Shown here: piece after piece, positions 5,241-58,038 of the stretch
Numbering within the stretch: the stretch's first letter is position 1
Layout: the number at the start of each line of letters is the position of its first letter
From: a virus
Lineage: Duplodnaviria > Heunggongvirae > Uroviricota > Caudoviricetes
IMG/VR virus record: IMGVR_UViG_3300031957_002393
Span: 20,373-84,372 of that record
Length of the DNA: 64,000 bases
Reading direction: 5' to 3' (one strand)
Translations under genes and position numbers: made by a program
The notes under the pieces: model-generated
Told to the model about the DNA's origin: nothing
Databases searched by the model: none
Seen by the model: the letters and a program-made list of their open reading frames with translations, nothing else

Positions 5241-6983
5241 ATGACCGTCACAGCCCCCAACGTAGAGATCAACTTGCCGCTGGGCATGAAGTTGTTTCGG
5301 CCCCCGGGAGCCCACGAACGCTATGACGACATGATGGCACAGTTCTTCGCTACGCCTTATGCGTTTTGTTATGTGTGCCCCATCGTCACAATCAACGATG
5401 TCGTTGAGATGATGCAACCCACGGATAATCAGAAACTGGTGGCAACGAAGGCGCAAGACAGTAGGTTTATTTGGGTTAACAAGTATCGTCAGGCGTTCAT
5501 CACTACACTCATGGACATGATGCTTTTGCGTGATTGTATGTACGGGGAAGGCATTCAGGGCGCGTTCGTTGCACAGAAAGAAGACACCCACAAAGAGCAC
5601 ATGCGGCGCATTTCCTTCACGTACAACAAGATGAAAGAGGATCCCATCCTATCAAAGTTCATCGTGCCGTTGAAGAAGAATACAAGCGCAACGATTTCAG
5701 GTATTGAGTTCATTCACGGTGGTGGTATTTGGCCTATCACTGCGGGCTCTGACAGCCCGGGTGTCGGTCGCTCCTTCTCTCGTGTTGTGGAGACAGAGAG
5801 TTGCGAGATGCCCGCCGAAGACTTCCATAGGCTGAACACAAAGTTCTACCCTACGATCACCAAGCGACCCTTCGGTCGTATTTGGCGAGAGAGCACTCCG
5901 GGTAAAGCAGAAACACCCCAACACCGTGCTTGGCTAAAGGCACTCAAGGGTAACAGTCGATTTGAGCCTGTGTTTTTGAAGTGGTGGGAAGATAGCGTCA
6001 ACACGGTACCCTTGAGTGACAAGTTCTCGCCAATCACAGAAGAAGAGAAGGAATACGCTCGACGCCTTAAAGGCATCACAAAGGGGCACGTTTACTTTCG
6101 CCGCTTTGAGATTAGCGACTTCTGTGACGGTGACGAGAATCTGTTTGAGGTCAAGTACCCGAGCGGCCCTCTCAAGGGTTGGACACGCAGCACAGGCACA
6201 GTGTTCGATCAACACCGTCTACAGAAAATGTACGACACGTCAATCAGCGATGACACGGGACGAAACATCAATCATTACTGCCTCGTTGCCAAGAAGCCCA
6301 ACCCTTATCATCGTTACGTTCTGGTAATCGACCCGACGGACTTCGGGGCCACGGGCGATAATGCGGCTATGATCATGTTTGACCGCTGTGACTGGGAAGA
6401 GGTAGCTAAGTGGGAAGGACGGGAAGACCCTACGAAAAGCTACCCCCGTGCAAAGGAAATGTGCAAATACTACAACAACGCCACAATGGTCATCGAGAGC
6501 AACTGCTCTGCCTTCATTGCCTTAGCTACAAGGGATGACGAACCTGACGCTCCACCAATCTACTACGAAAAGAAAGACAAGCCCGGTTGGCGAGCTACAT
6601 CAAAGTCTATTCAGGAAGGTGAGGCCGCGGTTAATGAGCTACTCAAGGAAGAGGTGTTCACATTGAACTTCGCCTCTACCATTGAGCAGATGCTACACTT
6701 CGATGGTAACAAGCGTGACCGACGAGTACGCAATACCCGTGGCGAAAAAAGTCACTTCGATTCGGCGCGCTGCGCTGTCATCGCCGCTCACTGGCTGTAC
6801 AATGGGGGCTACTGCGCCCCCATCTCGGAGGAAGAGCTGCGGAAGCTACGCGAGGCACAAGCCGAGAGAGACGAGGCTATCGCCCGTGAGCGATTCATCG
6901 CTGCGCTCAAGCGCAACGGACGTTACGAGGATCCCAACGCCGACAGCGTGTGGGCACCTGGGGCAGCTCGGAGGATGATGTGA
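5241..6983 (+). CDS. terL: terminase large subunit (putative)
   Basis: 580 aa. C-terminal region has nuclease-like motifs YVLVIDPTDFGATGDNAAMIMFD and MVIESNCSAF (terminase RNaseH-like D...D...E-x-N pattern); directly precedes portal-sized gene. No canonical Walker A seen, start codon uncertain. Confidence 0.5.
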   Translation: MTVTAPNVEINLPLGMKLFRPPGAHERYDDMMAQFFATPYAFCYVCPIVTINDVVEMMQPTDNQKLVATKAQDSRFIWVNKYRQAFITTLMDMMLLRDCMYGEGIQGAFVAQKEDTHKEHMRRISFTYNKMKEDPILSKFIVPLKKNTSATISGIEFIHGGGIWPITAGSDSPGVGRSFSRVVETESCEMPAEDFHRLNTKFYPTITKRPFGRIWRESTPGKAETPQHRAWLKALKGNSRFEPVFLKWWEDSVNTVPLSDKFSPITEEEKEYARRLKGITKGHVYFRRFEISDFCDGDENLFEVKYPSGPLKGWTRSTGTVFDQHRLQKMYDTSISDDTGRNINHYCLVAKKPNPYHRYVLVIDPTDFGATGDNAAMIMFDRCDWEEVAKWEGREDPTKSYPRAKEMCKYYNNATMVIESNCSAFIALATRDDEPDAPPIYYEKKDKPGWRATSKSIQEGEAAVNELLKEEVFTLNFASTIEQMLHFDGNKRDRRVRNTRGEKSHFDSARCAVIAAHWLYNGGYCAPISEEELRKLREAQAERDEAIARERFIAALKRNGRYEDPNADSVWAPGAARRMM

Positions 6984-8671
6984 AGCCAAAGCAACTTAGA
7001 GCCCTCGTTCGGCGACACAAAGAACGATACAGGCAGGAAGAGAAGGATCTATTCGAGCTGAACACTCGATTCTACAATGGTGCCTTCTACGAGAACTCGC
7101 AACAGCGTTTCAGTCTGATGCGCCATGGCTCCACGGGTACGCCTCTTGCTGCTGTCAACCTAATCTTCGCTCTTACGGAATCCGTTTGCTCGTCTATGCT
7201 CGGGCGAGACATCAGTGTTGTAGCGAAGGGAGCAGACGAAAAATCTGAGCAGTTTGAGTTCATCGTTACGCGAATGCTTGCGAATGAGTTCGCACGCAAC
7301 AAGTTCCGTATGACAGCACAGGTGTCGCTAACTGACGCTGTGTTGAATCGACGTGGTTGCTTCAAGGTCATCCCGGATAAAGCCAACCAAGGAGCAAGGA
7401 TTCTTGAGGTGCATCCACGGTACCTCGGTTACTCTCCAGATGCACGGGTGTTAGACGATTCGTCGTACTTCATCCAATGCGTACCTCTGCCGTGGCGTCA
7501 GTTCAAAGCCAACATTGACAGCGGAGCCTACCTGTCACCGAAGAAGGGAGCCAAGCCCGAAGGCTTACCTCAATGGGCAGCAACAGATGAAGAGCAGCGA
7601 CATCGTGATATCTTCGGTTACGCTACCATGTGGGAAATTTACGACACATGGGAAGGCAAAGTTTATCACTACCATGAGTGTAGTGAGCAGGTGTTGTACG
7701 AAGGTCAACCGAGTAACCACCCTTTTGGTATGTTCAGCCTCAACACGAACCAGCGGAACCTCGATGGTTTGAGTGAAGTGGAGTTGATCCTTGAGCAACA
7801 GGTTGCGTTGAATGACTTCCGTTCGACTGTGAATCAACTTGCCTACACGCTCATCCCTCGGATGATGTACGATGCAGGCATGATTGACGAAGACCAGTTG
7901 ACGAGGGTTTTACACGGCTCCGTTGGCGGCTTTGTTCCCGTGAAGCGAAAAGGCAATGCTGTACAGAAGCAGGCGGATTTAAGCCAAATCTTCCGTGAGG
8001 TACCACGGCCGCAGATTCATGGTGACATGATCAACGCCATGAACACAGCGATGTCGGATGCACAGTTTGTAAGCTCACTCATGCCACAGAACCGTGGCCA
8101 AGCGGTTAACATTCGTACAGCTAAGGAAGCCAGTTTGATTGAGGCTCAGGAGAGAAATCGTATCAGCGGGCGCATGGCTAACATGGAAATCAACGGCATC
8201 GTCCCTGTGGCAGAACGGGTACTGTACTACATTAAGAAGTACAGGCAGGGACCGCACACAGTCAAGATGGGTAAGCAGGACTGGCAGCAACTCAGCGGAA
8301 ATGACCTGTTGTCGTTCAAGGGCTCGTATCAGTTAACGGCTCAGTCGCCAGTCAAGACAAACCCAGCCATCATCGCAGAAAACTTAGGTCAACTGCAAAA
8401 CATGCTCGTGCAAAACCCAGACATCAACATGCGTGAGGTCATCGCCCTTATTTTCGAGGGCATGGGGATTCCGAAGGAGCGAGTGTTGCTTTCTCCCGAG
8501 GAAACGGCTAAGATCCAAGAGCAGATGGCCGCACAACAAGCCGCACAACAAGGCGGCGTGAACCCCGACGCCATGGTGGCTGCGAGCGAGCAGGCCGCAC
8601 AAGAAGATCCCTCCGGGGGTCTCGCGACCGCAGAGCAAACGGCTGCTGCAGCCCAGGAGATGATGGGATGA
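6950..8671 (+). CDS. portal protein (putative)
   Basis: 573-aa ORF immediately after terminase (34-nt out-of-frame overlap, GTG start; alternative GTG 6977), followed by scaffold-like genes; assignment by size/synteny only. Confidence 0.45.
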   Translation: MGTWGSSEDDVKPKQLRALVRRHKERYRQEEKDLFELNTRFYNGAFYENSQQRFSLMRHGSTGTPLAAVNLIFALTESVCSSMLGRDISVVAKGADEKSEQFEFIVTRMLANEFARNKFRMTAQVSLTDAVLNRRGCFKVIPDKANQGARILEVHPRYLGYSPDARVLDDSSYFIQCVPLPWRQFKANIDSGAYLSPKKGAKPEGLPQWAATDEEQRHRDIFGYATMWEIYDTWEGKVYHYHECSEQVLYEGQPSNHPFGMFSLNTNQRNLDGLSEVELILEQQVALNDFRSTVNQLAYTLIPRMMYDAGMIDEDQLTRVLHGSVGGFVPVKRKGNAVQKQADLSQIFREVPRPQIHGDMINAMNTAMSDAQFVSSLMPQNRGQAVNIRTAKEASLIEAQERNRISGRMANMEINGIVPVAERVLYYIKKYRQGPHTVKMGKQDWQQLSGNDLLSFKGSYQLTAQSPVKTNPAIIAENLGQLQNMLVQNPDINMREVIALIFEGMGIPKERVLLSPEETAKIQEQMAAQQAAQQGGVNPDAMVAASEQAAQEDPSGGLATAEQTAAAAQEMMG

Positions 8672-10776: not shown

Positions 10777-10803
10777 AAGGCCCCCGATCGACTCGGGGGC
10801 CTT
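10777..10803. terminator. bidirectional terminator hairpin between convergent genes
   Basis: GGCCCCCGA-TCGAC-TCGGGGGCC; T-rich on minus side (TTTCTCTT) and TTCGTCGTT on plus side; sits between stop 10728 (+) and stop 10830 (-). Member of the CCCCCGAGTCGA repeat family. Confidence 0.55.
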
Positions 10804-11917: not shown

Positions 11918-12451
11918 TTAGCTCCTTTGCTCACCATCACCACGGATTGTACCTGTGGCTTTACGTTGTTGTAGTTTGGCTGCGTTAGATGCGAGCAGAT
12001 CACTCACCTCAAGACCATGAGACTTCGCCAATCTACCCAAACAATCATAAGCCAACTGGCTCCATCGGTTCATCTCCACCGGAGTTAGGGTTCCTGTGTC
12101 GTGTAAGTGGATAAAAAGGCGATGTGACAGTGCATCGAGTTGCATTAGCGGGTCATTGGTGATGGCCCACGGGTGACAACCTCTCTCAGAGCACGGATTC
12201 ACGGCAGCGCCGCTCAAACACAGGGGCACGGTGGCGAAATTGCGGTGAAGTTCGCTTAGATACCAGTAGCAATCAGCGATTTCGCTGGCCACCTTCTCTG
12301 ACGCCCCCGAGTCGCCGCGAATAACCTTCTTCAAGCGCCCAAAAACCTCACCAACCTCGGACTTAAAGCCGAAGACAAGGTACTTAGCCGCATTTTCGTT
12401 AGGGTAAACGGCCGTAGACGCCGTTTGCTGGGAGTATTCAATCCAATCCAT
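11918..12451 (-). CDS. mazG: MazG-like nucleoside triphosphate pyrophosphohydrolase
   Basis: SEVGEVFGRLKK...EKVASEIADCYWYLSEL matches MazG EExxE...E..xDxxWYL metal-binding helices. Confidence 0.55.
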   Translation of the reverse strand: MDWIEYSQQTASTAVYPNENAAKYLVFGFKSEVGEVFGRLKKVIRGDSGASEKVASEIADCYWYLSELHRNFATVPLCLSGAAVNPCSERGCHPWAITNDPLMQLDALSHRLFIHLHDTGTLTPVEMNRWSQLAYDCLGRLAKSHGLEVSDLLASNAAKLQQRKATGTIRGDGEQRS

Positions 12452-13278: not shown

Positions 13279-13470
13279 GTAGTAGCTCCTTGCGATCACA
13301 GTGTCGCAGGCATGAGGTTTCATCGTACACGAGCCCACCGTAACCCGCTGGGCGTCCACCGCACAGACATTCAGCGCAAAAAATCACTCGCTTGCACACT
13401 CGCCGCCCCCGAGTTACCTGTGTGAAGGTCGGCGCACAAGGCGCTACGACCAGTGAGGGACCACAGGTCC

Positions 13471-15452: not shown

Positions 15453-15517
15453 GAGGAGGCAAATCGACTCGGGGGCGACATGAGCGACACCTCGGGGGCG
15501 ACACCCATCAGCAAAGT

Positions 15518-15531
15518 GTTGACACGTCAAG
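15518..15531. promoter_or_regulatory. GTTGACACGTCAAG palindromic site in noncoding region
   Basis: Third intergenic exact copy within 2 kb; flanked by CTCGGGGGCGACA x2 direct repeat (15490-15505) and CGCCCCCGAGTCTACGGGGGCG hairpin (15559-15580). Confidence 0.45.
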
Positions 15532-15654
15532 AGCACGGGGTGACAGCCCGCGACCACGCCCCCGAGTCTACGGGGGCGAAGGGATAACAACACGAGGAAG
15601 TGAAGAACAGTAGCACGGAGTAACATTGAGTAACAATCACACAGCATCACACCG

Positions 15655-15775
15655 TGATAATTCCAAATTGAAAAATCAAATTTTTTTATTATCATTGATC
15701 AACATAAATAAAACAAGGTTTGCAGCATACGTATAACATAATAGTCAGGTAAATAGGAAAAAGTAGGCGTATTAC
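15655..15775. other. AT-rich island (~120 bp, <30% GC) in otherwise GC-rich genome; candidate DNA-unwinding element/origin or strong promoter region
   Basis: aattccaaattgaaaaatcaaatttttttattatcattgatcaacataaataaaacaagg...; no ORF; followed by TATACGTATA palindrome at 15866. Confidence 0.4.
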
Positions 15776-16011
15776 GAGAGACACATCGCTTAAATCCCGC
15801 GCGCCGCCCTGGGGGGACGGCCTCGGGGGCCTTGAAAAAAATCGTTCCGCACCTCCCTTCGTGTCGATCGGTCATATACGTATACGGGCATGGGGGGTTC
15901 CACTATTCGTGGGGGCACTTAGACTTTCCCCTCGCAAGGGGACGGCGTTAGTGTCAACCGAACACTATACTTATTGTCATCGTGACACTATGTACCGCAC
16001 TGGTAGCTGGC

Positions 16012-16041
16012 ACGAAAAAGCCTCGCAGTGGAAGGCGAGGC
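16012..16041 (-). terminator. rho-independent terminator for minus-strand genes
   Basis: GCCTCGC-AGTGGAAG-GCGAGGC stem-loop; on minus strand followed by TTTTTCG (plus-strand AAAAAG at 16015-16020); 30 nt after stop of 16072 gene. Confidence 0.6.
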
Positions 16042-16071
16042 TATAGGCTTCTGGGTATGGCGACCGGTCGA

Positions 16072-16383: not shown

Positions 16384-16403
16384 CACAGACAGTGTAATCG
16401 ATC
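16384..16403 (-). promoter_or_regulatory. 20-bp direct repeat CACAGACAGTGTAATCGATC (copy 1), ~10 nt upstream of SD
   Basis: Identical 20-mer again at 16720-16739, same position relative to SD GGAGAT of the next gene. Confidence 0.45.
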
Positions 16404-16719: not shown

Positions 16720-16739
16720 CACAGACAGTGTAATCGATC
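16720..16739 (-). promoter_or_regulatory. 20-bp direct repeat CACAGACAGTGTAATCGATC (copy 2)
   Basis: Exact repeat of 16384-16403. Confidence 0.45.
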
Positions 16740-17459: not shown

Positions 17460-18040
17460 GGCGGGATCTCCTTTGATTGAGACACGACACTGCTACCGCA
17501 GCGATCACGGCATGTCCACAAAAGAATCATGTCCATTATATACGCGAAAGGCGACCGCCTATTGCAAGTATTGGGCCAATTGGACATTGGCACGGGGAAT
17601 GCATTAGTGGGAGTGCTTATGGTCCCGTCTCCAGGCGCCGATAGCATAGTGACTATCGACCTTTTCGTCTTTGTTATTGTTATACCTTACGACCCTTTAC
17701 TTATGTTTTATGTGTCTACCTCTACCCTCTTTTCACCTACGCACTGCTACCATGGGGGTTTATGCGGAGTGTATTGTATGGATCATTACTACATGAATGC
17801 CCCGATGACTCGGGGGCGATCGAGTGAGCATTTTTACTTACCAGGGGGGCGCCCCGTCGACTCGCTGGGGCGATCCCGCGGTGATCGTGTTGACTATGAT
17901 CCCCTTGACGCCTGTATTTCCGATGTCGTCCGAAGATTCTTTTAAAACAACCCTTGCCATTGGGGACCCGTAGACATAAGCTCTCTGTGTCGGAAGGGAA
18001 GCGGCGCCCCGCTGCTACCAACGACAGAGGAGATCAAACA

Positions 18041-18961: not shown

Positions 18962-19051
18962 TCCGGTGTTCACGCTTGCATCATAGCGATCGCCTTGCTA
19001 TGGTGCTGGCGTAAGCAACGGAACAAACAACAGGCAGAGGAGATACAAACA

Positions 19052-19525
19052 ATGCGAACAACAGAAGCACGCTACACGATCGGGCAACGCTACTCGCGCA
19101 ACGCTACAGGCAACGGCTACAGGCCCGCTACCTACGGGGAATGGCACGCCGTGACACTGCGATACAAGCGCAACGAGATCACGATCCTTGTGGATCGATC
19201 CATGGTCGATCGTATGATCGTCCGGCGGGTCATCGGCTCGGCTGTGTTCTGTCTCGCCGATACAAACCCTCGTTACGGCACGGCTTCCTTTATCGTGCTC
19301 GATATGGAAACCGAGATCCGGCATGGATCCACGGTTGACATCGGGGACGGGGAAGCATACGATCTGACGGGTACCACGGGTGATCTTTTCTTTCAGGGAG
19401 AAGAGTGGACCGCGTTTCTACACCCTGATATGGATCCGTGCGCTGACAACACCCCAGATCCTTTCGACCTTGACGATCTCACAGTGATCCGACGCGTGAT
19501 CGACTATTGGGGAGAAGTGTGTTAG
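19052..19525 (+). CDS. hypothetical protein (157 aa)
   Basis: ATG 19052 with SD GAGGAGA; leader GTAAGCAACGGAACAAACAACAGG. Confidence 0.45.
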   Translation: MRTTEARYTIGQRYSRNATGNGYRPATYGEWHAVTLRYKRNEITILVDRSMVDRMIVRRVIGSAVFCLADTNPRYGTASFIVLDMETEIRHGSTVDIGDGEAYDLTGTTGDLFFQGEEWTAFLHPDMDPCADNTPDPFDLDDLTVIRRVIDYWGEVC

Positions 19526-19679
19526 ACGGTTGACATTGCAGCGCTGTAGCGATAGCCCCGTCGACTCGGGGGCTACATAGGCCACAAGATCCGGTGCCTA
19601 CCTTTGGGTATCGTCCACCTGGACGGTACCGTTAGGTAACCATCGGGCCGCATAGGCTCACACTCTGGAGATACAAGCA

Positions 19680-26697: not shown

Positions 26698-27213
26698 ATG
26701 TCTGACGGATTCAACCTCATCGGCGCCTATGTTCGCATGAACGGCGACGATGAACACTGGCGTATCATTCGACTGCTTGACACACCTGACGGGCAACGTC
26801 CGCTATGCGTCAACATGACCACGGGCGCGATGATGGACATTGGGTGGCAATATCTTGCCCTCGTGAATATCAGCGCTGTGGAGTCGATGGGTGTGAATGC
26901 CGACGATTCCACAATCACTGGCCTCACAGTCGACTCGGGGTCGATGGCTGACAACGCCACTCCCACGAGCCCAGGTCCAGCAGTTCCAAGTGTTGACACG
27001 TCAACAGGCGAGGCAGGGAACACAGCGCCCGGTCCGAGTCGCAACGAGCTGTTGGAGCTACTGATCGATCTCACCGATGCGTGGGCCTATTCTACACCTG
27101 AACAATTCGACGAGGTGTTTAAACATCAAATGTCAGAGCTGATCGAGAAGCACCCGAGCGCATACGCTTCCATTGTCGAATCGCTACGATTCTACATGGA
27201 TAAAGAAGCGTGA
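26698..27213 (+). CDS. hypothetical protein (171 aa)
   Basis: SD AGGAGAG; contains internal GTTGACACGTCAAC copy. Confidence 0.4.
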   Translation: MSDGFNLIGAYVRMNGDDEHWRIIRLLDTPDGQRPLCVNMTTGAMMDIGWQYLALVNISAVESMGVNADDSTITGLTVDSGSMADNATPTSPGPAVPSVDTSTGEAGNTAPGPSRNELLELLIDLTDAWAYSTPEQFDEVFKHQMSELIEKHPSAYASIVESLRFYMDKEA

Positions 27214-27508
27214 CAGCTCTCGGTATCAGTCGACGGGACGTAGAGTCGTTGCGGCTACAAGGGACCTTGTCGAATGGTACGAGGGTTGCAACAGGACGAC
27301 AAGTCTACATGATCGACAATCCGATGGTACACGGAATGTACATCGGTGTCACGCCTGACGGCTACGTCACCATCCTACACGACAACAAGAGTCAATGGGA
27401 AAAAAGTAGTCGACGGGATGAATTCAACCGCCTATGTAGGAAAGTGTACGGTGAGCGGTGGCGTACACGAGTCTACAAGAACAACACAGATGGAAAAAGG
27501 AACACACG

Positions 27509-28075
27509 ATGAACAACGATACCATGAACGCTACTACTTTTGACTTCGGGGATGGTGCCGGTCCTGTGCCTGCGAAGCGTCATATCAACCCCGATGGCAG
27601 CGAAGGTGGATGGGTGGCATCGACCGCAATTGTTGCGGGTAGCGCGTGGGTGTTCGGGAATGCACGGGTGTACGGGGATGCATGTGTGTACGGGTATGCA
27701 CAGGTGTTCGGGAATGCACGGGTGTACGGGTATGCACGGGTGTACGGGGATGCACAGGTGTTCGGGAATGCACAGGTGTACGGGGATGCATGTGTGTACG
27801 GGAATGCATGTGTGTACGGGAATGCACGGGTGTGCACCACCGCTGACTGCGCTTTCGGGAGCACAGGAGATTACGCCTGGACAGCATACACCACTAACAC
27901 AACTACCTTCCTCAAGTATGGGTGTGAAGCACATGCTATCGAGTGGTGGCGTCAGCAGGACAGCAAACTCTCGGTGAAGCACGGTCACGACGAGAACCAT
28001 TGGGCGTATGTCAAAGCAGTCATCGCGATCGCAGAAGTAATCGAAGCCAACAGGGTTAAGGAAGGTGAGGAATGA
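27509..28075 (+). CDS. hexapeptide-repeat (left-handed beta-helix-like) protein
   Basis: 10 tandem V[FY]G[NDY]A[RQC] hexapeptides encoded by 18-bp tandem DNA repeat; ATG 27509 after AAAAAGGAAC. Confidence 0.5.
   Translation: MNNDTMNATTFDFGDGAGPVPAKRHINPDGSEGGWVASTAIVAGSAWVFGNARVYGDACVYGYAQVFGNARVYGYARVYGDAQVFGNAQVYGDACVYGNACVYGNARVCTTADCAFGSTGDYAWTAYTTNTTTFLKYGCEAHAIEWWRQQDSKLSVKHGHDENHWAYVKAVIAIAEVIEANRVKEGEE
27650..27829 (+). repeat. 10 x 18-bp in-frame tandem repeat GTGT(A/T)CGGG(A/G/T)ATGCA(C/T)(G/A)G
   Basis: Direct reading of 27650-27829; encodes the hexapeptide array. Confidence 0.85.
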
Positions 28076-28491: not shown

Positions 28492-28608
28492 GGAGATAAG
28501 TGCGAACAGAGTCAACACAGTTGACCCCATCGACGAGGCGACAAGTCGACTCGGGGCGGGGGCCAGGGCTACACAGTAACACAACGTATACAGGTAAGGA
28601 GTTCTACA

Positions 28609-28975: not shown

Positions 28976-30196
28976 ATGAACAACAATGATTCCACGGGGG
29001 AGTGCATGGAACTATACGATCAAGTTTTCAAGGTGCCAGCCATGCAACAATGGTTACAAGAGCACGAAGCCAATATCGACTTCATCTGTGTGAGATGTAC
29101 GCTATCCCACGGGGACAAAGGGTACCATGTGATCGGTGTCCGTGGACCCACGGGCCTTACCTTCTACCTGTGGAGCATTCAACATAACGACAGTGTTAAG
29201 GCTACGCCTTACTACGGTTGGCACACACTCAATCTCAATCACTGCAAAGTTACTGCGGTGGCGTGGAATGAAGAGGGTGTGCAGGTTCCATGCAAGGTAC
29301 CACGTTGGGCACTCTTCTCTCTTGCGTGCAGAGCTGCAAGTGTCGAAGGTTACAAGGGTGAGCCTACCAACCGCTTTCACACGGGCGCGCACGGGAAGCT
29401 GAAGTACACATACGGCAAGCAAGAAGACGTAGCTATGCCCCCAAGGTACGATCACCGTGACATGTTCACTGTGACAGAGGTGCAATGGGATGTTAGGTAT
29501 GACACCACGGAGGAAGACATGACTACACCGAAGCAACTACAGCCCGGGGAAGTAGTTGAAACAGAGGAGCTAAGGGAACGCATCGTTCACATGGACGAAT
29601 GCTACTTCGAGCGAGAGGAGAGACAGCGTAACCCTGTTGGTGGCTACACAGAACTCAAGTGGGTCAAGTCTGCGGGGCGATACTACGAGCGACTCTCAGC
29701 TAAGCGTGAATGGGTATCGATCGGAACGATGCTAAAGGTGTACGGTTTCTGTGTCAAGTGGCGTATCGTTTCGCCCCCGAGTCAACTGTGCACCACCGAC
29801 AACATGAGCGACAAGGTAGAAGCCATGAGCGACAACACGGACAAAGTCAACGACACGGTGCCTGTGGACACGATCACTATCACTCTCACGCTACCTGTAC
29901 CCATCGGTACGGGGAAGCTGGTCGACAAGAAGCGATTGCTCGACTACTTTGCCTCACTTATGCACGATGAGGCGTTTAGGGACGCATGTAGCATGGTCGA
30001 TGCGGGCATTAGTGTGTGCGACACCCACAGCGTAGAAAACGGTGGGTCAGTAGGTGCGTGGATCCGTGAACGATCCTATGTCACCACGAAGGATGACGCC
30101 CCCGAGTCGACTGGAGTAGCATCTGACCTCAACGCCCCCGAGTCTACTGGGCGCACAAAGGGAACGATGCTACGATCAGCTCCTCCGTGTAAGTAA
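28976..30196 (+). CDS. hypothetical protein (406 aa)
   Basis: Long ORF; contains two CGCCCCCGAGT repeat copies near 3' end in-frame (DAPESTG x2). Confidence 0.4.
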   Translation: MNNNDSTGECMELYDQVFKVPAMQQWLQEHEANIDFICVRCTLSHGDKGYHVIGVRGPTGLTFYLWSIQHNDSVKATPYYGWHTLNLNHCKVTAVAWNEEGVQVPCKVPRWALFSLACRAASVEGYKGEPTNRFHTGAHGKLKYTYGKQEDVAMPPRYDHRDMFTVTEVQWDVRYDTTEEDMTTPKQLQPGEVVETEELRERIVHMDECYFEREERQRNPVGGYTELKWVKSAGRYYERLSAKREWVSIGTMLKVYGFCVKWRIVSPPSQLCTTDNMSDKVEAMSDNTDKVNDTVPVDTITITLTLPVPIGTGKLVDKKRLLDYFASLMHDEAFRDACSMVDAGISVCDTHSVENGGSVGAWIRERSYVTTKDDAPESTGVASDLNAPESTGRTKGTMLRSAPPCK

Positions 30197-30229
30197 AAAG
30201 GTATTACGCGGTGAGTGTCGACACACATG

Positions 30230-30895
30230 TCACTCGTCGGGTCTCAGCCAATCGGGTACAGTGGTGTCGACATGATCACTTTCATTCAATCGACTCGGGG
30301 GCGTAGTAGCTGTTGTGTCGATGGTGTCAATGAGCGACGTTGGTGCCACGGGGGTAACGTCGACACGGGGAGGATCCTTTTTCAATCCATCACGTTTTAC
30401 TCCCTCAGTCATCATGCGTAGACGATCGAAGATTTCTGCGATGCCAGCTTCCTCGGGAGACACAGGCTTGTTCTCTCGCAACGCTGCCTCGGTGTCGTAT
30501 TGATACTTCGATGCCACACCTGCGTGAAACAACACCTGCTTCGCTGCGTTGACACGGGCTGTATCTTTCGCTTCCACGTCTTCGGCGATGTCCATTAGTA
30601 CAGTGAGTGCACGGGGACCAAAGCCGATAGCTTTCTGAGCGATCGACAAGCGTTGCGATTCCATGTACGCCACTCGTGCACGACGGAGAGCGGGGTGGCA
30701 CGAGAGACCCGATGTGAAGGATAACAAACTGAGGCCAAGGGACGTTGCGATTGCCGGATCACTTTGACCCTCGGACAACAAGCGTATACATTCCTCGACC
30801 ATCATGGCGTTGTGGACCCACGGGGGTGCACCCGGCGCAATGTTGTATTCGGGTACATTAACGGTAGTCATTGTGCCACTGGTAACTTTAGGCAT
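30230..30895 (-). CDS. terminase small subunit-like HTH DNA-binding protein
   Basis: ECIRLLSEGQSDPAIATSLGLS (HTH) and RALTVLMDIAEDVEAKDTARVNAAKQVLFHAG resemble Terminase_2/TerS C-terminal motif; start set to ATG 30895 (minus-strand SD GGAG). On opposite strand and 24 kb from terL. Confidence 0.4.
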   Translation of the reverse strand: MPKVTSGTMTTVNVPEYNIAPGAPPWVHNAMMVEECIRLLSEGQSDPAIATSLGLSLLSFTSGLSCHPALRRARVAYMESQRLSIAQKAIGFGPRALTVLMDIAEDVEAKDTARVNAAKQVLFHAGVASKYQYDTEAALRENKPVSPEEAGIAEIFDRLRMMTEGVKRDGLKKDPPRVDVTPVAPTSLIDTIDTTATTPPSRLNESDHVDTTVPDWLRPDE

Positions 30896-31655
30896 AGTTG
30901 GACTCCATGGATGAAGGTAGCTGCGTTGAACTCGGGGGTGACGGCAAGAAACGGCATGGGCAGAAAGCATATTCGACTCGGACACCCCTTCGACTCGGGG
31001 GCGACCACGAGTCATCGGGGGTAGCGCGTCGCCCAGGCGAGTCGACTGTGCAAGTCGCCTGAGGGAGTAGAAGGTGGAAGCATGGAGCGCCACGGCACAC
31101 ACAGAGTACCACGGACAGTGGGGTTTGTCGATCAGGTAGGCATATCCCTACGGGATTCTACGGGGGAGGGGTCACCTGCTCCATTACGAGAGTGTCGGCC
31201 GTCAGCGGATTCTCGGGGGGCTAAATGGAGAAACCTCGTACTTCCCCTACCCCTACCTCATTTCTACTACTCTACTACTACTCGACTACGATCACTCTCT
31301 CGTGAAGAAGTGCTACGGAGTAGGCGAGGTTTTGATCGGTACTATAGGGGCTGTAGAAAACTTCTGAGCGAACGTGACAGCCGTGTGACACCGAGCTGTC
31401 AAAATCGCCGAGAGTGTAGTAGCGGCCGACATTCTCTTAATGGAACCCGCGTTTCCTCCGTGCAACTACCTACCGCCATTACGACTATGACCGTCACCAC
31501 AGCACTCTCGCGGAATCGTGCCATATGGCCCGCAGTTTGTGAGGGCTTGTGCGTAGTCACACGGTGTAACTCCCTGTACCACACTTCCACAAAGACGTTG
31601 CACCCTGCTACCCAATGGGCTACAATGTGTGCACCATCCTCATGGAGACACACCG

Positions 31656-31964
31656 ATGCAGTTGTTTAAGTCACCTCGTCGACGACGAGTCAGGTACCAT
31701 GGTACCTTGCCTTTCCACAAGAGTTGTAGGGTGTACGACTGTGAAGTCATGATCCCCTACAGAGGCAAAGAGTACAGATACGTCGCTGTCATGCGATCAC
31801 AGGTACCGGGGCTTGAATCAGGTCTCACACTTTACTTCGTGTACGAGAGTGAAGATGGGCGACAGCGGTTGCGGGGACCTGTGGGATGGTGCGACACAGT
31901 GAGCTACAAGTCTGCGTTGCGATCGATCAACATGGTTCTCGTGGGTGACGATGGATCTTCATGA
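31656..31964 (+). CDS. hypothetical protein (102 aa)
   Basis: ATG 31656 ORF embedded in repeat-rich noncoding region. Confidence 0.3.
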   Translation: MQLFKSPRRRRVRYHGTLPFHKSCRVYDCEVMIPYRGKEYRYVAVMRSQVPGLESGLTLYFVYESEDGRQRLRGPVGWCDTVSYKSALRSINMVLVGDDGSS

Positions 31965-32423
31965 ACATGTTGACATGCTCCCACGGGGATGCTACCATGT
32001 GGATATAGACAGTCGCCCCCGAGTTGACTGTGCGCTCCTGGCGAGTAAACGGGGATAACAGGATTAACAACATTCGCCCCCGAGTTATCTGGGCGATATA
32101 GAAGGGTCAACGGGGCTAACACTACAAAGATGACACGATTGAGCACCGGCCATGATGATCGCCCAGGCGAGGCAACTGTGGTCAGTGGCATGGTAATCAC
32201 TACACCACAACGACATGTTACCCCCATCGACTCGGGGGATGAGGGTTGTTGCTTCTTACTACCACAGTCAACTCGGGGGCGATCACCGGTTGACACTCTT
32301 CGGGCCCGGTGTTACATGAGAATCGGGGTGAAAAAGTAACACCATCCTACAAACAACAACTGACGCCCCCGAGTCAACGGGGCAACATGACGATACCTTC
32401 CACACCACTACAAAGGTAAAACA

Positions 32424-33749: not shown

Positions 33750-34021
33750 CAAAGCGTGAACACCCGTAGTTAGACGAGCGAGGAGAAGAAGTTACGAGGT
33801 ACACGTTTCACCCGATCGCACCGTGTTACCCCGAAGACTACACTCCACGTTACTTAACCCGAGTTGACTGTGCTCGTTGGCGCATGAAACTCTTGACATG
33901 TCAACCCCTACACCGTGTGACTTTCGCTTGCCGCCCGTGCCTACCGTGTTACCCTTGGTGCGGGATGCAGGATCCCAGGGCGTTGAGGAACCATAACACT
34001 TTTTCACACAGGAGCATAACG

Positions 34022-34913: not shown

Positions 34914-35342
34914 TTGAGCGTCGTCGAGCCGCAACGCTTCACATTCGCACAGGTAAGCACAGTGAAAGACAAACCTGCACCCAACGTGAACTATCGGTTC
35001 TGCGGTAAGTGTTCTCAGGAACGCTACCGTAGAGAGGATGTCAAGGAAGCAGCTCGTGAGGCAGATAAACTAAGGGCCGATGTTGCTCAGTTGACTCTTG
35101 ACGTGTCAAGGCTTCGAGCTGAAAACAAACGCATTCGGGATCGTCTGCGTGTAGCACTGGACAACGCTGCTTATTGGCAGAGCCTTGCCACTCGTCGCTC
35201 CCGAGTCGATGGGGGCGATGTGTCACCCCTACCCCTCGCTACAATCAAAAAGCTTTTGGCCTTGTGTCACCCCGATCGCCATGATAACAGTGAGCTGAGC
35301 AACGAGGTTACACGTTGGCTCATTAACCAGAGGAAAAAATGA
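34914..35342 (+). CDS. J-domain (DnaJ-like) protein
   Basis: C-terminal IKKLLALCHPDRHDNSELSNEVTRWL contains HPD tripeptide in J-domain helix II/III context; N-terminal coiled coil; start uncertain (TTG 34914); overlaps out-of-frame Zn-ribbon ORF 34802..35008. Confidence 0.45.
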   Translation: MSVVEPQRFTFAQVSTVKDKPAPNVNYRFCGKCSQERYRREDVKEAAREADKLRADVAQLTLDVSRLRAENKRIRDRLRVALDNAAYWQSLATRRSRVDGGDVSPLPLATIKKLLALCHPDRHDNSELSNEVTRWLINQRKK

Positions 35343-38473: not shown

Positions 38474-38542
38474 GGGGTGATAGCTTAATGGAGAGCGGCA
38501 GGCGGCCACCTGCAGGTGAGGGTTCAAGTCCCTCAAACCCCT
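38474..38542 (+). tRNA. degenerate tRNA-like element (possible tRNA pseudogene; anticodon unclear)
   Basis: Good T-arm GAGGG-TTCAAGT-CCCTC and D-loop TAGCTTAATGG but acceptor has 2 mismatches and anticodon loop is 6 nt (GCAGG-CGGCCA-CCTGC). Confidence 0.3.
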
Positions 38543-41987: not shown

Positions 41988-42185
41988 ATGTGGAAGTTCG
42001 CTGAAAACAACCCTGTGCGTTTTGTTGTTATCATTACCATTATCGCTATCGTGGGTGTCGCTATTGCCTCTGTGATTCCGCAGACCGTTGCTGTGATCAC
42101 GGTTACTCCGTATGAGTCCGGTGGAGGCAAGCTACACATGACGGTCGGTGGAGATGAAGGTGTCGACGCCGACGACAACCGATAG
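41988..42185 (+). CDS. small membrane protein, paralog A (65 aa)
   Basis: N-terminal TM helix; C-terminal ESGGGKLHMTVGGDEGVDADDNR shared with next gene. Confidence 0.45.
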   Translation: MWKFAENNPVRFVVIITIIAIVGVAIASVIPQTVAVITVTPYESGGGKLHMTVGGDEGVDADDNR

Positions 42186-42245
42186 GATCGTGGTGGAGCT
42201 TGGCGCCTCTACTGTCAATGTCTCTATCAACAAGAGAGGTGAGTA

Positions 42246-42455
42246 ATGGAAAAGTTTATGCGCAATAGCCCTTTTGCTTTCGTTCTACTCGTGTTCATCG
42301 TTGCGTCTGTGGTTACCAGTGTTTTCGACATGGTAACTATGACGGCCATGGCCGCTATGGGCGTCAACTTTGAGCAGGGCGGAGGCAAGCTTCATGTCTC
42401 CCTGGGGGGTGACACCGATGCATCTACCGAAAGCGACGCCGACGACAACCGATAG
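42246..42455 (+). CDS. small membrane protein, paralog B (69 aa)
   Basis: Same architecture; C-terminal EQGGGKLHVSLGGD...DADDNR; DNA repeat GACGCCGACGACAACCGATAGGATC at both 3' ends. Confidence 0.45.
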   Translation: MEKFMRNSPFAFVLLVFIVASVVTSVFDMVTMTAMAAMGVNFEQGGGKLHVSLGGDTDASTESDADDNR

Positions 42456-42459
42456 GATC

Positions 42460-57977: not shown

Positions 57978-58038
57978 TCCACTCTCCTCGTCCCTGGCGG
58001 GCCTTGTAACTCGGAGCCCGGCGTGTTACAAGGAGATC

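What the first reader, a model, noticed from the sequence alone, without database searches (positions are those of the whole stretch)
30096..32385. Family of over 20 GC-rich ~17-bp repeats (CGCCCCCGAGTCGACTG), massively clustered in about 1.2 kb of noncoding DNA flanking a TerS-like gene: candidate pac site or iteron origin
The core (A/T)CGCCCCCGAGT(C/T)(G/A)AC(T)G(G/T) recurs in both orientations between 10.7 and 39.5 kb. Examples are at 10781, 13420, 15467, 15559, 17805, 17850, 19553, 25040, 26930, 28540, 29779, 33853, 35207 and 39520. At least 13 copies are packed into 30.1-32.4 kb, including tandem pairs at 30096/30132 and 32013/32074. That interval holds two unusually long noncoding stretches for a phage (30897-31655 and 31965-32423) and a minus-strand gene with a terminase-small-subunit-like HTH. 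Several copies are self-complementary (CCCCCGAGTCGA...TCGGGGG) and form terminator hairpins. Together this looks like either the packaging initiation (pac) region bound by TerS or an iteron-type replication origin.
Basis: partly seen in the sequence, partly recalled or inferred. Interest (0 to 1): 0.8.

Follow-up and report, generated by a model that had tools for sequence, protein, structure and literature searches.

The report
Phage-private GC-rich repeats bracketing a TerS-like gene
A real, phage-specific family of about 19-bp GC-rich repeats marks the gene boundaries of one block of small unknown genes in an uncharacterised ~92-kb phage and piles up as two large inverted-repeat structures around a displaced small-terminase-like gene; it most likely controls transcription, could be a packaging site, and is very unlikely to be a replication origin.

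Summary
The motif CGCCCCCGAGTCGACTG has 20 matches at up to 3 mismatches against 0.28 expected by chance. A PWM scan finds 19 strong copies, all between 10.7 and 35.2 kb, and 10 of them lie within 29.7-32.4 kb. Counting degenerate copies gives about 13-15 in the cluster. The minus-strand gene 30230-30895 is a small-terminase (TerS) homolog: its family profile matches PaP3 TerS at E=4.6e-6, and a short homolog sits directly upstream of a large-terminase gene. The motif is not a host REP element (singletons only in ~185,000 genomes). The family has two classes, hairpin-forming and linear. Copies are enriched in noncoding DNA (P~4e-5). They occupy all three convergent gene junctions and several operator-like positions at sigma70-like promoters. 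The copies around the TerS-like gene form two long dyads (fold z=-5.8 and -4.9). A relative with 38% protein identity keeps the module but carries its own diverged GC-rich repeat spread over intergenic gaps, with no cluster at its TerS gene. My best reading (~0.4) is transcription-punctuating protein-binding or hairpin elements. A TerS packaging site remains possible (~0.22). An iteron origin is unsupported: no AT-rich island, no Rep gene, irregular spacing. Function is untested.

The parts
30230..30895 (-). TerS-like gene (221 aa): N-terminal HTH plus a helical oligomerisation core. It is the only minus-strand gene between 17.9 and 55.6 kb.
   Evidence: Profile vs PDB: 6w7t E=4.6e-6, 7joq E=1.8e-4. 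Single-sequence hit E=0.03. AF2 HTH residues 25-66 at pLDDT ~90. Homolog P0005 is adjacent to a TerL gene. No Pfam or PHROG hit.
29772..29790 (+). Repeat copy, linear class, inside the 3' part of gene 28976-30196
   Evidence: PWM 26.8; no hairpin, z=+1.2
30096..30304 (.). Left dyad. Copies 30097+ and 30133+ pair with 30285- across the convergent stop codons (30196 and 30230). The copies lie in the C-terminal tails of both genes and are translated as APESTG x2 and TPPSRLN.
   Evidence: Inverted repeats I8/I11, 18 nt, 94%/89% complementary. RNA fold -101.6 kcal/mol, z=-5.8. Translations.
30922..31050 (.). Middle cluster, 27-155 nt upstream of the TerS-like start codon: 30922- (weak), 30985- and 31002+ (back-to-back, hairpin class), 31030+ (insertion variant CGCCCAGGCGAGTCGACTGTG)
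   Evidence: This leader is not significantly structured as RNA (z=-0.96).
31176..31250 (-). Noncoding block conserved in relative L004 (CTCCATTaCGAGAGTGTCGGCCGTCAGCGGATTCTCGGGGGGCTAAATGGAG plus a purine-rich tract on the gene strand). A partial second copy lies at 31405-31446. It is an alternative candidate for the TerS recognition site or a structured RNA.
   Evidence: Alignment A1 columns ~500-600. tblastx 31176-31250 vs L004 2735-2809. The CGGCCG..ATTCTC unit is found only in this gap (plus direct reading).
31970..31998 (+). Best sigma70-like promoter of the region (TTGACA-17-TGcTACCAT), pointing right into the right cluster
   Evidence: 10 of 12 matches with an extended -10. Consensus match only, not proof of function.
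32012..32283 (.). Right dyad. Nested inverted pairs 32014+/32263- (20/20 nt identical) and 32075+/32222-, with degenerate copy 32160+ near the centre. All three known SNPs (32143, 32172, 32188) are at its centre.
   Evidence: I4 100% and I1. Leader fold -154 kcal/mol, z=-4.9. SNPs. Spacings 61, 85, 62, 41 nt are close to whole helical turns.
32364..32382 (+). Repeat copy, weak hairpin class, 42 nt before the start of gene 32424. It forms an inverted pair with 30985-, and a Logan contig starts exactly at 32382.
   Evidence: (I9)
10783..10801 (-). Dispersed copy: perfect 12-bp hairpin plus U-tract at the convergent junction 10728|10830. The only copy that qualifies as an intrinsic terminator.
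   Evidence: -24.6 kcal/mol, z=-5.4; context
15459..15575 (.). Dispersed group 15459-, 15482-, 15557+ flanking the palindrome TTGACACGTCAA (15519) at the convergent junction 15452|16072, beside the window's most AT-rich island (15656-15755)
13404..13422 (+). Dispersed copy in the divergent gap 13359|13502, overlapping the spacer and -10 of a TTGCAC-17-TACCTG promoter-like site
17800..17870 (-). Two dispersed copies (17800-, 17852-) in the divergent gap 17459|17954
19556..19574 (-). Dispersed hairpin copy 31 nt after the stop of gene 18995-19525, immediately downstream of a TTGACA -35-like hexamer (19530)
26925..26943 (-). Dispersed linear copy inside gene 26698-27213, 50 nt from palindrome 26993
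28541..28559 (-). Dispersed weaker copy in the gap 28491|28609
33854..33872 (+). Weak copy (GAGTTGACTGTG half conserved), 21 nt from palindrome 33893
35196..35214 (+). Dispersed hairpin copy inside gene 34914-35342, 87 nt from palindrome 35098
   Evidence: (z=-3.6)
12302..12320 (+). Dispersed copy inside the MazG-like gene 11918-12451(-), antisense to it

Best explanation
The repeats are a lineage-private family of cis-acting elements that punctuate transcription of the phage's block of small orphan genes (10.7-35 kb).

The conserved half, CGCCCCCGAGT(C/T), is most likely read as double-stranded DNA by a phage-encoded sequence-specific protein. The HTH protein encoded in the middle of the cluster is the prime suspect. 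About half the copies have also acquired a complementary 3' arm and can form GC-rich hairpins.

Single hairpins or inverted pairs sit at every convergent gene junction of the block, where they would stop transcription from both sides. Other copies lie on or just downstream of sigma70-like promoters, where a bound protein would act as an operator or roadblock.

The 30-32.4 kb locus is the main control region. One long dyad spans the convergent ends of the upstream operon and the lone reversed TerS-like gene. A second nested dyad sits in the 5' leader just after the strongest rightward promoter. Four more copies cover the TerS-like gene's own upstream region, which would allow autoregulation.

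Shown: existence, distribution, noncoding enrichment, two structural classes, dyad architecture, and positions relative to genes and promoter-like sites. Inferred: protein binding, the identity of the binder, and any effect on transcription.
For: - Copies are confined to the orphan-gene block: 23 of 23 CCCCCGAG cores lie in 10-40 kb and none in the structural or replication modules.
- Twelve of 19 strong copies lie in the 19% of that block that is noncoding (P=3.6e-5). Outside the cluster it is 6 of 9 (P=0.003).
- All three convergent junctions in the block (10728|10830, 15452|16072, 30196|30230) carry a hairpin or an inverted pair.
- Several copies sit at operator-like positions. 32014 is at about +9 of TTGACA-17-TACCAT. 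19556, 13404 and 28541 lie 14-20 nt after -35-like hexamers. 15482 and 15557 flank the TTGAC palindrome.
- Six of 9 TTGACnnGTCAA palindromes in the block have a copy within 115 nt.
- The 5' arm and loop are far more conserved than the 3' arm (information content), and linear copies do not fold (z~0). That points to sequence recognition, not just structure.
- The collinear relative L004 carries its own GC-rich units (GGCCCCGRG, often 11-bp tandem) in most intergenic gaps, typically after a stop codon and upstream of TTGACA-17-TAnnnT promoters. It has no cluster at its TerS-like gene.
- Variation between near-identical genomes is limited to the centre of the right dyad, while the arms are invariant.
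Against: - No experiment or transcript data: promoters are consensus matches only.
- Orientation relative to transcription is mixed (12 sense, 6 antisense), unlike stoperators.
- Seven strong copies lie inside coding sequence.
- Many sigma70-like promoters between 18 and 27 kb have no copy, so the element is not a general promoter component.
- Only one copy has a U-tract.
- The only recognisable DNA-binding protein at the locus belongs to a packaging family (TerS), not a known repressor family.
- Nothing explains why about 14 copies are needed in 2.7 kb.
- L004's repeat is related only through the core GCCCCGAG, so its equivalence to this family is an inference.
Confidence: 0.4

Rival explanations
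1. Packaging recognition region (pac or cosB-like). The TerS-like HTH protein assembles as a ring on the dense site clusters around its own gene and recruits TerL to start packaging. Isolated copies elsewhere bind too weakly to matter.
For: - The flanked gene is a TerS homolog.
- PaP3-type TerS is reported to bind a specific ~20-bp site (PMC7672466).
- Four sites lie within 155 nt upstream of the start codon, as lambda cosB R sites lie before Nu1 (my own knowledge).
- No TerS gene sits beside TerL, here or in relatives.
- Right-cluster spacings are near whole helical turns.
- Contigs of relatives tend to stop upstream of the gene.
Against: - Nine of 19 strong copies are dispersed over 25 kb at gene junctions and promoters. 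No known pac or cos system has such a dispersed site family.
- L004 keeps the gene and the upstream conserved block but has no cluster of its own GC-rich repeat there.
- The block conserved across relatives is a different sequence (31176-31250), which is a better candidate for a conserved TerS site.
- The gene is 23 kb from TerL-portal, alone on the opposite strand.
- The assembly breaks at 30979 and 32382 are graph branch points with k-1 overlap, not DNA ends.
Confidence: 0.22
2. PeSL-like mobile or recombinogenic cassettes. The repeats are short homology patches, some with terminator hairpins, that spread through the plastic orphan-gene block and serve mainly as crossover points for gene shuffling. 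The cluster would be an accumulation left by repeated insertions and deletions, with little dedicated function.
For: - Copies are restricted to an ORFan-rich block, as PeSLs are to hyperplastic regions (PMC2839356, PMC4122927).
- G/C-tract stem-loops lie near sigma70-like promoters.
- Copies intrude into variable C-terminal tails of two genes.
- The only inter-strain variation and both assembly-graph branch points lie at the cluster.
- The related phage has a diverged version of the element.
Against: - Conservation covers only 17-20 nt, not a whole promoter-plus-terminator cassette.
- No indel or gene swap bounded by copies was seen; the available genomes are nearly identical.
- The perfect 20/20 inverted pair and the invariant dyad arms suggest selection on the arrangement.
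Confidence: 0.15
3. RNA-level signals only. The hairpins and long dyads are transcribed and act as RNase III or other processing sites, attenuators or stabilisers, with no DNA-binding protein involved.
For: - The long dyads fold very strongly (z=-5.8 and -4.9), with 18-21-bp near-perfect stems suited to RNase III.
- Hairpin copies lie in intergenic positions.
- SNPs fall in the apical region of the right dyad.
Against: - About half of the copies have no partner and do not fold.
- The loop sequence GAGTCGA is conserved more than the 3' arm.
- Copies occur on both strands relative to transcription, and a G-U-tolerant RNA signal would be strand-specific.
Confidence: 0.12
4. Iteron-type replication origin. 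An initiator binds the repeats flanking its own gene, as in the P1 or F plasmid layout, and opens the DNA nearby.
For: - A gene flanked by repeat clusters on both sides resembles incC-repA-incA of P1 (my own knowledge).
- Long noncoding DNA is present.
- Three copies lie next to the window's only strong AT-rich island at 15.66 kb.
Against: - No AT-rich stretch at 29.7-32.4 kb (maximum 55% AT).
- The gene is TerS-like and all-helical, not a winged-helix Rep protein.
- Irregular spacing and mixed orientation; DnaA boxes are not enriched (10 observed, 11 expected).
- No GC-skew inflection.
- The replication genes (primase/helicase, SNF2-like helicase) are at 55.7-60 kb.
Confidence: 0.04
5. A host REP/BIME-type element picked up by the phage.
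For: GC-rich, partly palindromic, mostly extragenic.
Against: The exact 17-mer occurs only once per genome in 49 of ~185,000 representative species, about the chance level, and never in multiple copies. It occurs once in IMG/VR. Contigs with paired cores are coincidental coding repeats or a giant-virus array. Caveat: the true host may not be in the collection.
Confidence: 0.02

Closest known systems
Stoperators/operators of Cluster A mycobacteriophages (L5 gp71 system)
   Same: There are more than 20 copies of a short asymmetric site private to the phage lineage. Sites lie at promoters and in short intergenic gaps, and the proposed action is to block both initiation and elongation (PMC9283540).
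   Different: Stoperator orientation strictly follows the direction of transcription and sites span the whole genome. Here orientation is mixed (12:6), copies are confined to one 25-kb block, half can form hairpins, and there is a 14-copy super-cluster. No L5-type repressor was found. The nearby HTH protein is TerS-like.
PeSLs (promoter-early stem-loops) of T4-type phages
   Same: Repeated intergenic elements with G/C-tract stem-loops next to sigma70-like promoters. They are concentrated in ORFan-rich plastic regions and linked to local genome variability (PMC2839356, PMC4122927).
   Different: PeSLs are conserved as whole composite cassettes (stem-loop, AT-rich tract, -35, -10, SD). Here only 17-20 nt are conserved, promoters are separate and often absent, and no PeSL-bounded indel has been observed.
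TerS recognition sites at packaging origins (lambda cosB R sites; SPP1 pacL/pacR; PaP3 cos)
   Same: Several short sites lie immediately upstream of and around a terS gene that encodes an HTH TerS. PaP3-type TerS binds a ~20-bp site specifically (PMC7672466).
   Different: Known packaging sites are single loci beside the terS-terL operon. Here half of the copies are dispersed, the gene is 23 kb from TerL on the opposite strand, and the cluster is not conserved in the relative.
phiC31 conserved inverted repeats (CIRs) bound by the phage repressor
   Same: From my own knowledge, not checked in the library: a ~17-bp operator involved in repressor autoregulation that also recurs in many intergenic regions of the early genes.
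   Different: CIRs are palindromic and bound by a dedicated repressor of a temperate phage. Here the core is asymmetric, and no integrase or repressor was seen in the window.
Iteron clusters flanking rep genes (P1 incC-repA-incA, F incB-repE-incC)
   Same: A gene bracketed by clusters of ~19-bp repeats in both orientations.
   Different: No Rep-type initiator, no AT-rich unwinding element, no DnaA-box enrichment, and dispersed copies elsewhere.

Membership tests
Small terminase (TerS), applied to gene 30230-30895 | N-terminal helix-turn-helix DNA-binding domain | tested here: met
   AF2 helices 25-66 at pLDDT 87-94. Weak HTH_23 match, E=0.06. The profile matches designed HTH repeats and the KorA/TrfB HTH.
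Small terminase (TerS), applied to gene 30230-30895 | Helical oligomerisation core homologous to solved TerS structures | tested here: met
   Profile A2 vs PDB: 6w7t E=4.6e-6, 7joq E=1.8e-4. The Foldseek hits with highest probability are Sf6 TerS 4dzj/3hef and 2ao9, but these are not significant.
Small terminase (TerS), applied to gene 30230-30895 | Encoded next to the large terminase gene | tested here: not met
   The probable TerL is at 5241-6983, directly upstream of the portal, 23 kb away on the other strand. The feature is met for the short homolog P0005 in L009.
Small terminase (TerS), applied to gene 30230-30895 | Forms an 8-11-mer ring and stimulates TerL | not testable with these tools
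   Needs biochemistry or a multimer model with a deep alignment. Only 4 family members exist.
pac/cos TerS-binding site cluster | Sites lie in or next to the terS gene | tested here: met
   Copies at 30285 (inside the 3' end), at 30922-31050 (27-155 nt upstream), and at 30097/30133 and 32014-32382.
pac/cos TerS-binding site cluster | Recognition sites are confined to the packaging locus | tested here: not met
   Nine strong copies lie between 10.8 and 28.6 kb and at 35.2 kb.
pac/cos TerS-binding site cluster | Genome termini or first headful cut map at the site | not testable with these tools
   No reads are available. Contig breaks at 30979 and 32382 are de Bruijn branch points, not ends. The JGI contig reads through.
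pac/cos TerS-binding site cluster | The site arrangement is conserved with the TerS gene in relatives | tested here: not met
   L004 has only 2-3 of its own GC-rich units within 750 nt upstream and none downstream. What is conserved is a different ~90-nt block.
Iteron replication origin | Directly repeated, regularly phased iterons | tested here: not met
   Mixed orientation, with spacings of 36, 152, 637, 63, 17, 28, 984, 61, 85, 62, 41 and 101 nt.
Iteron replication origin | Adjacent AT-rich DNA-unwinding element | tested here: not met
   Maximum 100-nt AT content is 0.48-0.55 in the locus. The window's only strong island (0.77) is at 15656-15755.
Iteron replication origin | Adjacent Rep initiator gene; DnaA boxes | tested here: not met
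   The gene is TerS-like. DnaA boxes: 10 observed vs 11 expected, with one in the locus.
Stoperators (Cluster A mycobacteriophages) | More than 20 asymmetric sites at promoters and in short intergenic gaps | tested here: met
   19 strong plus about 9 weak copies, 12 of 19 noncoding (P=3.6e-5), several at promoter-like sites.
Stoperators (Cluster A mycobacteriophages) | Site orientation correlates strictly with the direction of transcription (PMC9283540) | tested here: not met
   12 sense and 6 antisense in unidirectionally transcribed DNA.
Stoperators (Cluster A mycobacteriophages) | L5 gp71-type immunity repressor encoded by the phage | tested here: inconclusive
   No repressor or integrase family hit among about 35 proteins scanned. 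Most window genes, and 29 kb of the genome, were not scanned.
PeSL regulatory cassettes (T4-type phages) | Concentrated in ORFan-rich hyperplastic regions | tested here: met
   All copies lie in 10.7-35.2 kb, where nearly all proteins lack PHROG or Pfam hits.
PeSL regulatory cassettes (T4-type phages) | Composite unit: stem-loop plus sigma70 promoter, conserved together | tested here: not met
   Flank alignment shows conservation limited to about 20 nt, apart from one 52-nt pair.
PeSL regulatory cassettes (T4-type phages) | Copies mark indel or replacement boundaries between close relatives | tested here: inconclusive
   The available genomes differ by only 3 SNPs, all inside the cluster. Graph branch points lie at copies. 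No indel was seen.
Intrinsic (rho-independent) terminators | GC-rich hairpin followed by a U-tract, downstream of a gene | tested here: not met
   About 10 copies form hairpins, but only 10783 has a U-tract. The consensus terminator scan of 28-34 kb found none at copies.
Host REP/BIME elements | Many copies in the host chromosome | tested here: not met
   49 singletons among 185,579 species genomes, and no genome with 2 or more.

The most novel reading that the evidence does not exclude
The displaced TerS homolog may be a dual-purpose protein. It would bind the dispersed CGCCCCCGAGT sites as a global silencer or roadblock of the orphan 'early' gene block. It would also nucleate on the two dyads around its own gene to start DNA packaging. 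Accumulation of one protein would then couple shut-off of early transcription to the start of encapsidation. This would be the first small terminase with a genome-wide operator network.
Probability: 0.1. Interest if true: 0.8.

Novelty: new variant of a known kind. Interest (0 to 1): 0.45.

Why it matters
Dispersed, phage-private repeat families such as stoperators, CIRs and PeSLs are among the few handles available on gene regulation and genome plasticity in phages whose genes are nearly all orphans.

This phage belongs to an uncharacterised clade: more than 50 TerL homologs on contigs up to 97 kb, with almost no Pfam or PHROG hits. Its repeat family gives a concrete, testable map of regulatory and boundary sites. 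It also raises a specific question: why is a small-terminase homolog conserved as a lone reversed gene inside the orphan block, bracketed by long dyads of the repeat?

If the TerS homolog binds these sites, it would give a defined DNA recognition sequence for a PaP3-type TerS, and possibly a link between packaging and transcription control. If it does not, the family is one more example of intergenic regulatory or recombination cassettes, which is useful for annotation but not surprising.

Tried and rejected
- **DNA-level relatives.** blastn 'distant' against 50,697 annotated phages found no match. IMG/VR scans with the TerS-like protein and the portal found none. A metagenome scan with the family alignment found none. 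An IMG/VR scan for the conserved gap block found none.
- **Rfam.** Only tRNAs were found, with no known RNA family in the gaps.
- **Pfam and PHROGs.** Nothing above threshold for the TerS-like protein and its neighbours.
- **Host REP.** Rejected.
- **Viral contigs with paired cores (L013-L015).** Coincidental: a giant-virus tandem array and a coding 'APES' linker.
- **Physical genome end at 30979/32382.** Rejected. The middle unitig overlaps the flanking contig by about k-1 nt and the JGI contig reads through. Exact repeats of 30 nt or more that could break a k=31 graph do not exist.
- **Inversion of the 1.4-kb segment between 30985- and 32364+.** Considered. The break positions at the outer rather than inner edges of the arms do not fit, and no inverted contig was seen.
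- **A 2-kb 'gap' at 58-60 kb as an origin.** It is a 711-aa ORF that my gene caller missed.
- **Phage-specific promoter motif.** Rejected, because half of the copies point antisense or into no gene.
- **More distant clade members (L071, L073).** Only the structural module is reachable. It has neither motif, as in the window.
- **The canonical TerL-adjacent homolog (L009, L010).** No notable repeats.
- **My first window-to-contig coordinate conversion was wrong.** It was corrected: record position = window + 29002.

Full report
**1. What the window is**

The window comes from a ~92.5-kb metagenomic phage genome.
- It matches JGI 3300076251 contig Ga0565006_000107 (record position = window + 29,002) and is identical to Logan contigs from two other runs.
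- It has no DNA-level relative among annotated phages, and almost none of its proteins hit Pfam or PHROGs.
- Recognisable genes:
  - an SU10-type portal at 6950-8671;
  - just upstream, a protein with large-terminase nuclease motifs at 5241-6983, which has more than 50 unannotated homologs always placed next to the portal;
  - a DUF927 primase/helicase at 55755-57977(-);
  - a 711-aa ORF at 57904-60039;
  - six tRNAs at 38.3-42.9 kb.
- Between 10.7 and 36 kb lies a block of small orphan genes, nearly all on the plus strand.

**2.

- The 17-mer has 20 matches at up to 3 mismatches, against 0.28 expected.
- A PWM finds 19 strong and about 9 weaker copies.
- All 23 CCCCCGAG cores lie between 10 and 40 kb. 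None lies in the structural module, the replication/tRNA region, or 9 kb further left.
- Ten of 19 strong copies fall in 29.7-32.4 kb (P~1e-5). With degenerate copies (30922, 31002, and the insertion variants at 31030 and 32160) the cluster holds about 14.
- The two long stretches flanking the small ORF 31656-31964 look noncoding.

**3. Anatomy of the family**

- Information content is highest for CGCCCCCGAGT and falls off in the 3' part.
- Folding separates two classes.
  - Hairpin copies (CGCCCCCGAGTCGAyGGGGGCG; 10783, 15557, 17800, 19556, 30985, 32222, 32364, 35196) have dG -10 to -25 kcal/mol.
  - Linear copies (..GAGTyGACTGTG; 26925, 29772, 30097, 30133, 32014, 32263, 13404, 30285) fold no better than shuffles.
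- Only 10783 has a U-tract.
- Copies are strongly enriched in noncoding DNA: 12 of 19 in 19% of the sequence, P=3.6e-5. Outside the cluster it is 6 of 9, P=0.003.
- All three convergent junctions of the block carry a hairpin or an inverted pair.
- Several copies sit on or just after sigma70-like promoter matches. The clearest is 32014, at about +9 of TTGACA-17-TGcTACCAT.
- Orientation relative to transcription is mixed, 12 sense to 6 antisense.
- A second, separate motif, the palindrome TTGACACGTCAA, occurs 15 times against 2.3 expected. It lies within 115 nt of a GC-rich copy in 6 of its 9 occurrences in the block.

**4. The cluster**

It resolves into three parts.
- **Left.** Copies 30097+ and 30133+ pair with 30285- across the convergent stop codons of gene 28976-30196 and the minus-strand gene. 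They form a 209-nt dyad with fold z=-5.8. These copies lie in the C-terminal tails of both proteins and are translated as APESTG x2 and TPPSRLN, so selection acts on the DNA.
- **Middle.** Four copies lie 27-155 nt upstream of the minus-strand gene's start codon. This leader is not significantly structured (z=-1).
- **Right.** Directly after the 31970 promoter lies a nested dyad: 32014+/32263- are identical over 20 nt, 32075+/32222- sit inside them, and a degenerate copy lies at the centre. Fold z=-4.9. A further copy is at 32364.

The only three differences between the window and two other assemblies, over about 40 kb, are 32143, 32172 and 32188. They sit at the centre of the right dyad, and 32172 restores the GAGT consensus in the degenerate copy.

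Two independent Logan assemblies break at 30979 and 32382, and the 1.4 kb between is a separate unitig. The overlap of about k-1 nt, and the absence of any exact repeat of 30 nt or more, show these are polymorphism-driven graph branches, not DNA ends.

**5. The gene in the middle is a small-terminase homolog**

- Single-sequence search: best PDB hit is PaP3 TerS 6w7t, E=0.03.
- The exhaustive HMMER search found only three real homologs.
- A profile of the four sequences hits 6w7t at E=4.6e-6 and a second TerS (7joq) at 1.8e-4.
- The AF2 model has a confident HTH followed by a long helical hairpin.
- The Foldseek matches with highest probability are Sf6 TerS and the 2ao9 TerS-like nonamer, though these are not significant.
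- The short homolog P0005 overlaps the start of a Terminase_6N/6C gene.

Yet the gene is 23 kb from TerL-portal, alone on the minus strand. That arrangement, with a long upstream gap, is conserved in two collinear relatives, L004 and L006.

**6. Comparative evidence**

- L004 (38% protein identity, 62.5% GC) carries its own GC-rich repeat, CGGCCCCGAGCATGCCCCGGG / (GGCCCCGGGTC)n, which shares only the core GCCCCGAG.
- It occurs in most intergenic gaps, usually after a stop codon and upstream of TTGACA-17-TAnnnT promoters. It is not clustered at the TerS-like gene.
- L004 has the same TTGACrYGTCAA palindrome, and L006 has TTGACAAGTCAA upstream of its homolog.
- What is conserved upstream of the TerS-like gene is a different ~90-nt block, window 31176-31250. 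It has a partial second copy at 31405-31446 and a purine-rich tract.
- The 17-mer is not a host REP element and is essentially absent from IMG/VR.

**7. Interpretation**

- The dispersed, junction- and promoter-associated distribution, its confinement to the orphan block, and the behaviour of the element in L004 fit a transcription-punctuating cis element best. It would act as an operator or roadblock plus hairpin, and is probably read by a phage protein. I put this at about 0.4.
- The TerS identity of the enclosed gene keeps a packaging-site role for the super-cluster alive (~0.22). The dispersed copies, the lack of a conserved cluster, and the existence of a better-conserved candidate site all weigh against it.
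- PeSL-like recombination cassettes (~0.15) and purely RNA-level signals (~0.12) remain possible and are not mutually exclusive with the best model.
- An iteron origin is poorly supported (~0.04). The locus has no AT-rich element, no Rep gene, irregular spacing, no DnaA-box enrichment and no skew inflection. The only strong AT island in the window is at 15656-15755, next to three copies. I report that as a separate lead.

**8. Comparison with known systems**

- The family behaves like stoperators (PMC9283540) in number and placement, but fails their defining orientation rule.
- It resembles PeSLs (PMC2839356, PMC4122927) in habitat and G/C stem-loops, but is not a composite conserved cassette.
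- It resembles cosB/pac site clusters in its position by terS, but is not confined to one locus.

I therefore class it as a new variant of a known kind: lineage-private intergenic repeat families in phages. Its unusual feature is the pair of long dyads bracketing a displaced TerS homolog. All functional statements are inference, and no binding, transcript or terminus data exist.

Noticed in passing
window 9737, 11366, 13472, 14779, 15519, 20343, 25001, 26993, 28674, 33893, 35098, 46460, 48630, 51301, 60283; L004 371, 2606, 7494, 8528; L006 ~211: A second repeat family: the 12-bp palindrome TTGACACGTCAA (TTGACnnGTCAA), with 15 copies against 2.3 expected. It is spread over the whole window and conserved exactly in the 38%-identity relative L004. 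Two copies sit 18 nt before RBS+ATG (13472, 14779). It may be an operator for a conserved dimeric regulator, or back-to-back -35 elements.
   Followed up: partly
window 15453-16071, especially 15656-15755: A 619-nt noncoding gap at a convergent junction contains the most AT-rich 100 nt of the whole window (77% AT, ~6 SD above the mean). It is flanked by three GC-rich repeat copies, the palindrome, and a GGCCCCCGAGGCC hairpin at ~15815-15835. It is a better candidate for a DNA-unwinding element or origin than the reported locus.
   Followed up: partly
window 31176-31250 and 31405-31510; L004 2735-2809, 2448-2571: A ~90-nt noncoding block upstream of the TerS-like gene is conserved between phages with only 38% protein identity. 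It carries internal CGGCCG..ATTCTC..AATGG units repeated 2-3 times and an adjacent purine-rich tract. It could be the real TerS/cos element or a structured RNA. Rfam has no match.
   Followed up: partly
window 32143, 32172, 32188: The only three SNPs between the window and the JGI and Logan copies, over about 40 kb compared, fall within 46 nt at the centre of the right dyad. 32172 G>T restores the repeat consensus in a degenerate copy.
   Followed up: yes
window 30979 and 32382 (L003, L068, L069): Two independent Logan assemblies break at the outer edges of the inverted copy pair 30985-/32364+, and the 1.4 kb between is a separate unitig. There is no exact repeat of 30 nt or more to explain this, so an unidentified population polymorphism is implied.
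   Followed up: partly
window 27648-27833: An in-frame tandem repeat (18-nt unit x10.3, or 54-nt x3.4, 85-89% matches) inside gene 27458-28075. That gene is one of the few orphan-block proteins with PHROG hits (phrog_5070/7964, unknown function).
   Followed up: no
window 28976-30196 (C-terminus) and 30230-30895 (C-terminus): Repeat copies are translated within the C-terminal tails of two convergent genes (..DDAPESTGVASDLNAPESTG.. and ..TTPPSRLNES..). These tails are not conserved in homologs, so the DNA motif appears to be tolerated in, or imposed on, disordered protein ends.
   Followed up: partly
window 5241-6983 and relatives L071-L074: A large uncharacterised phage clade: more than 50 TerL-like homologs at 30-68% identity on contigs up to 97 kb, none with a Pfam TerL annotation. 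The module is conserved as (-) tail genes | TerL, SU10-type portal, two small genes, an MCP-like gene. No TerS gene lies beside TerL in any of them.
   Followed up: partly
window 38474-38542: A tRNA-like gene for which ARAGORN reports an undetermined identity (2-nt 'anticodon' gc). Rfam scores it as a tRNA at 43.8 bits. It sits in a cluster with tRNA-Gln, Asn, Phe and Lys.
   Followed up: no
window 57904-60039: A 711-aa plus-strand ORF, helicase-like on reading the sequence, divergent from the DUF927 primase/helicase. My self-trained gene caller missed it, and it was not annotated further.
   Followed up: no
window 42164-42189 and 42434-42459; 16384-16403 and 16720-16739: Two further exact repeat pairs (26 nt and 20 nt) turned up in the k-mer census. 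They are unrelated to the GC-rich family and were not examined.
   Followed up: no
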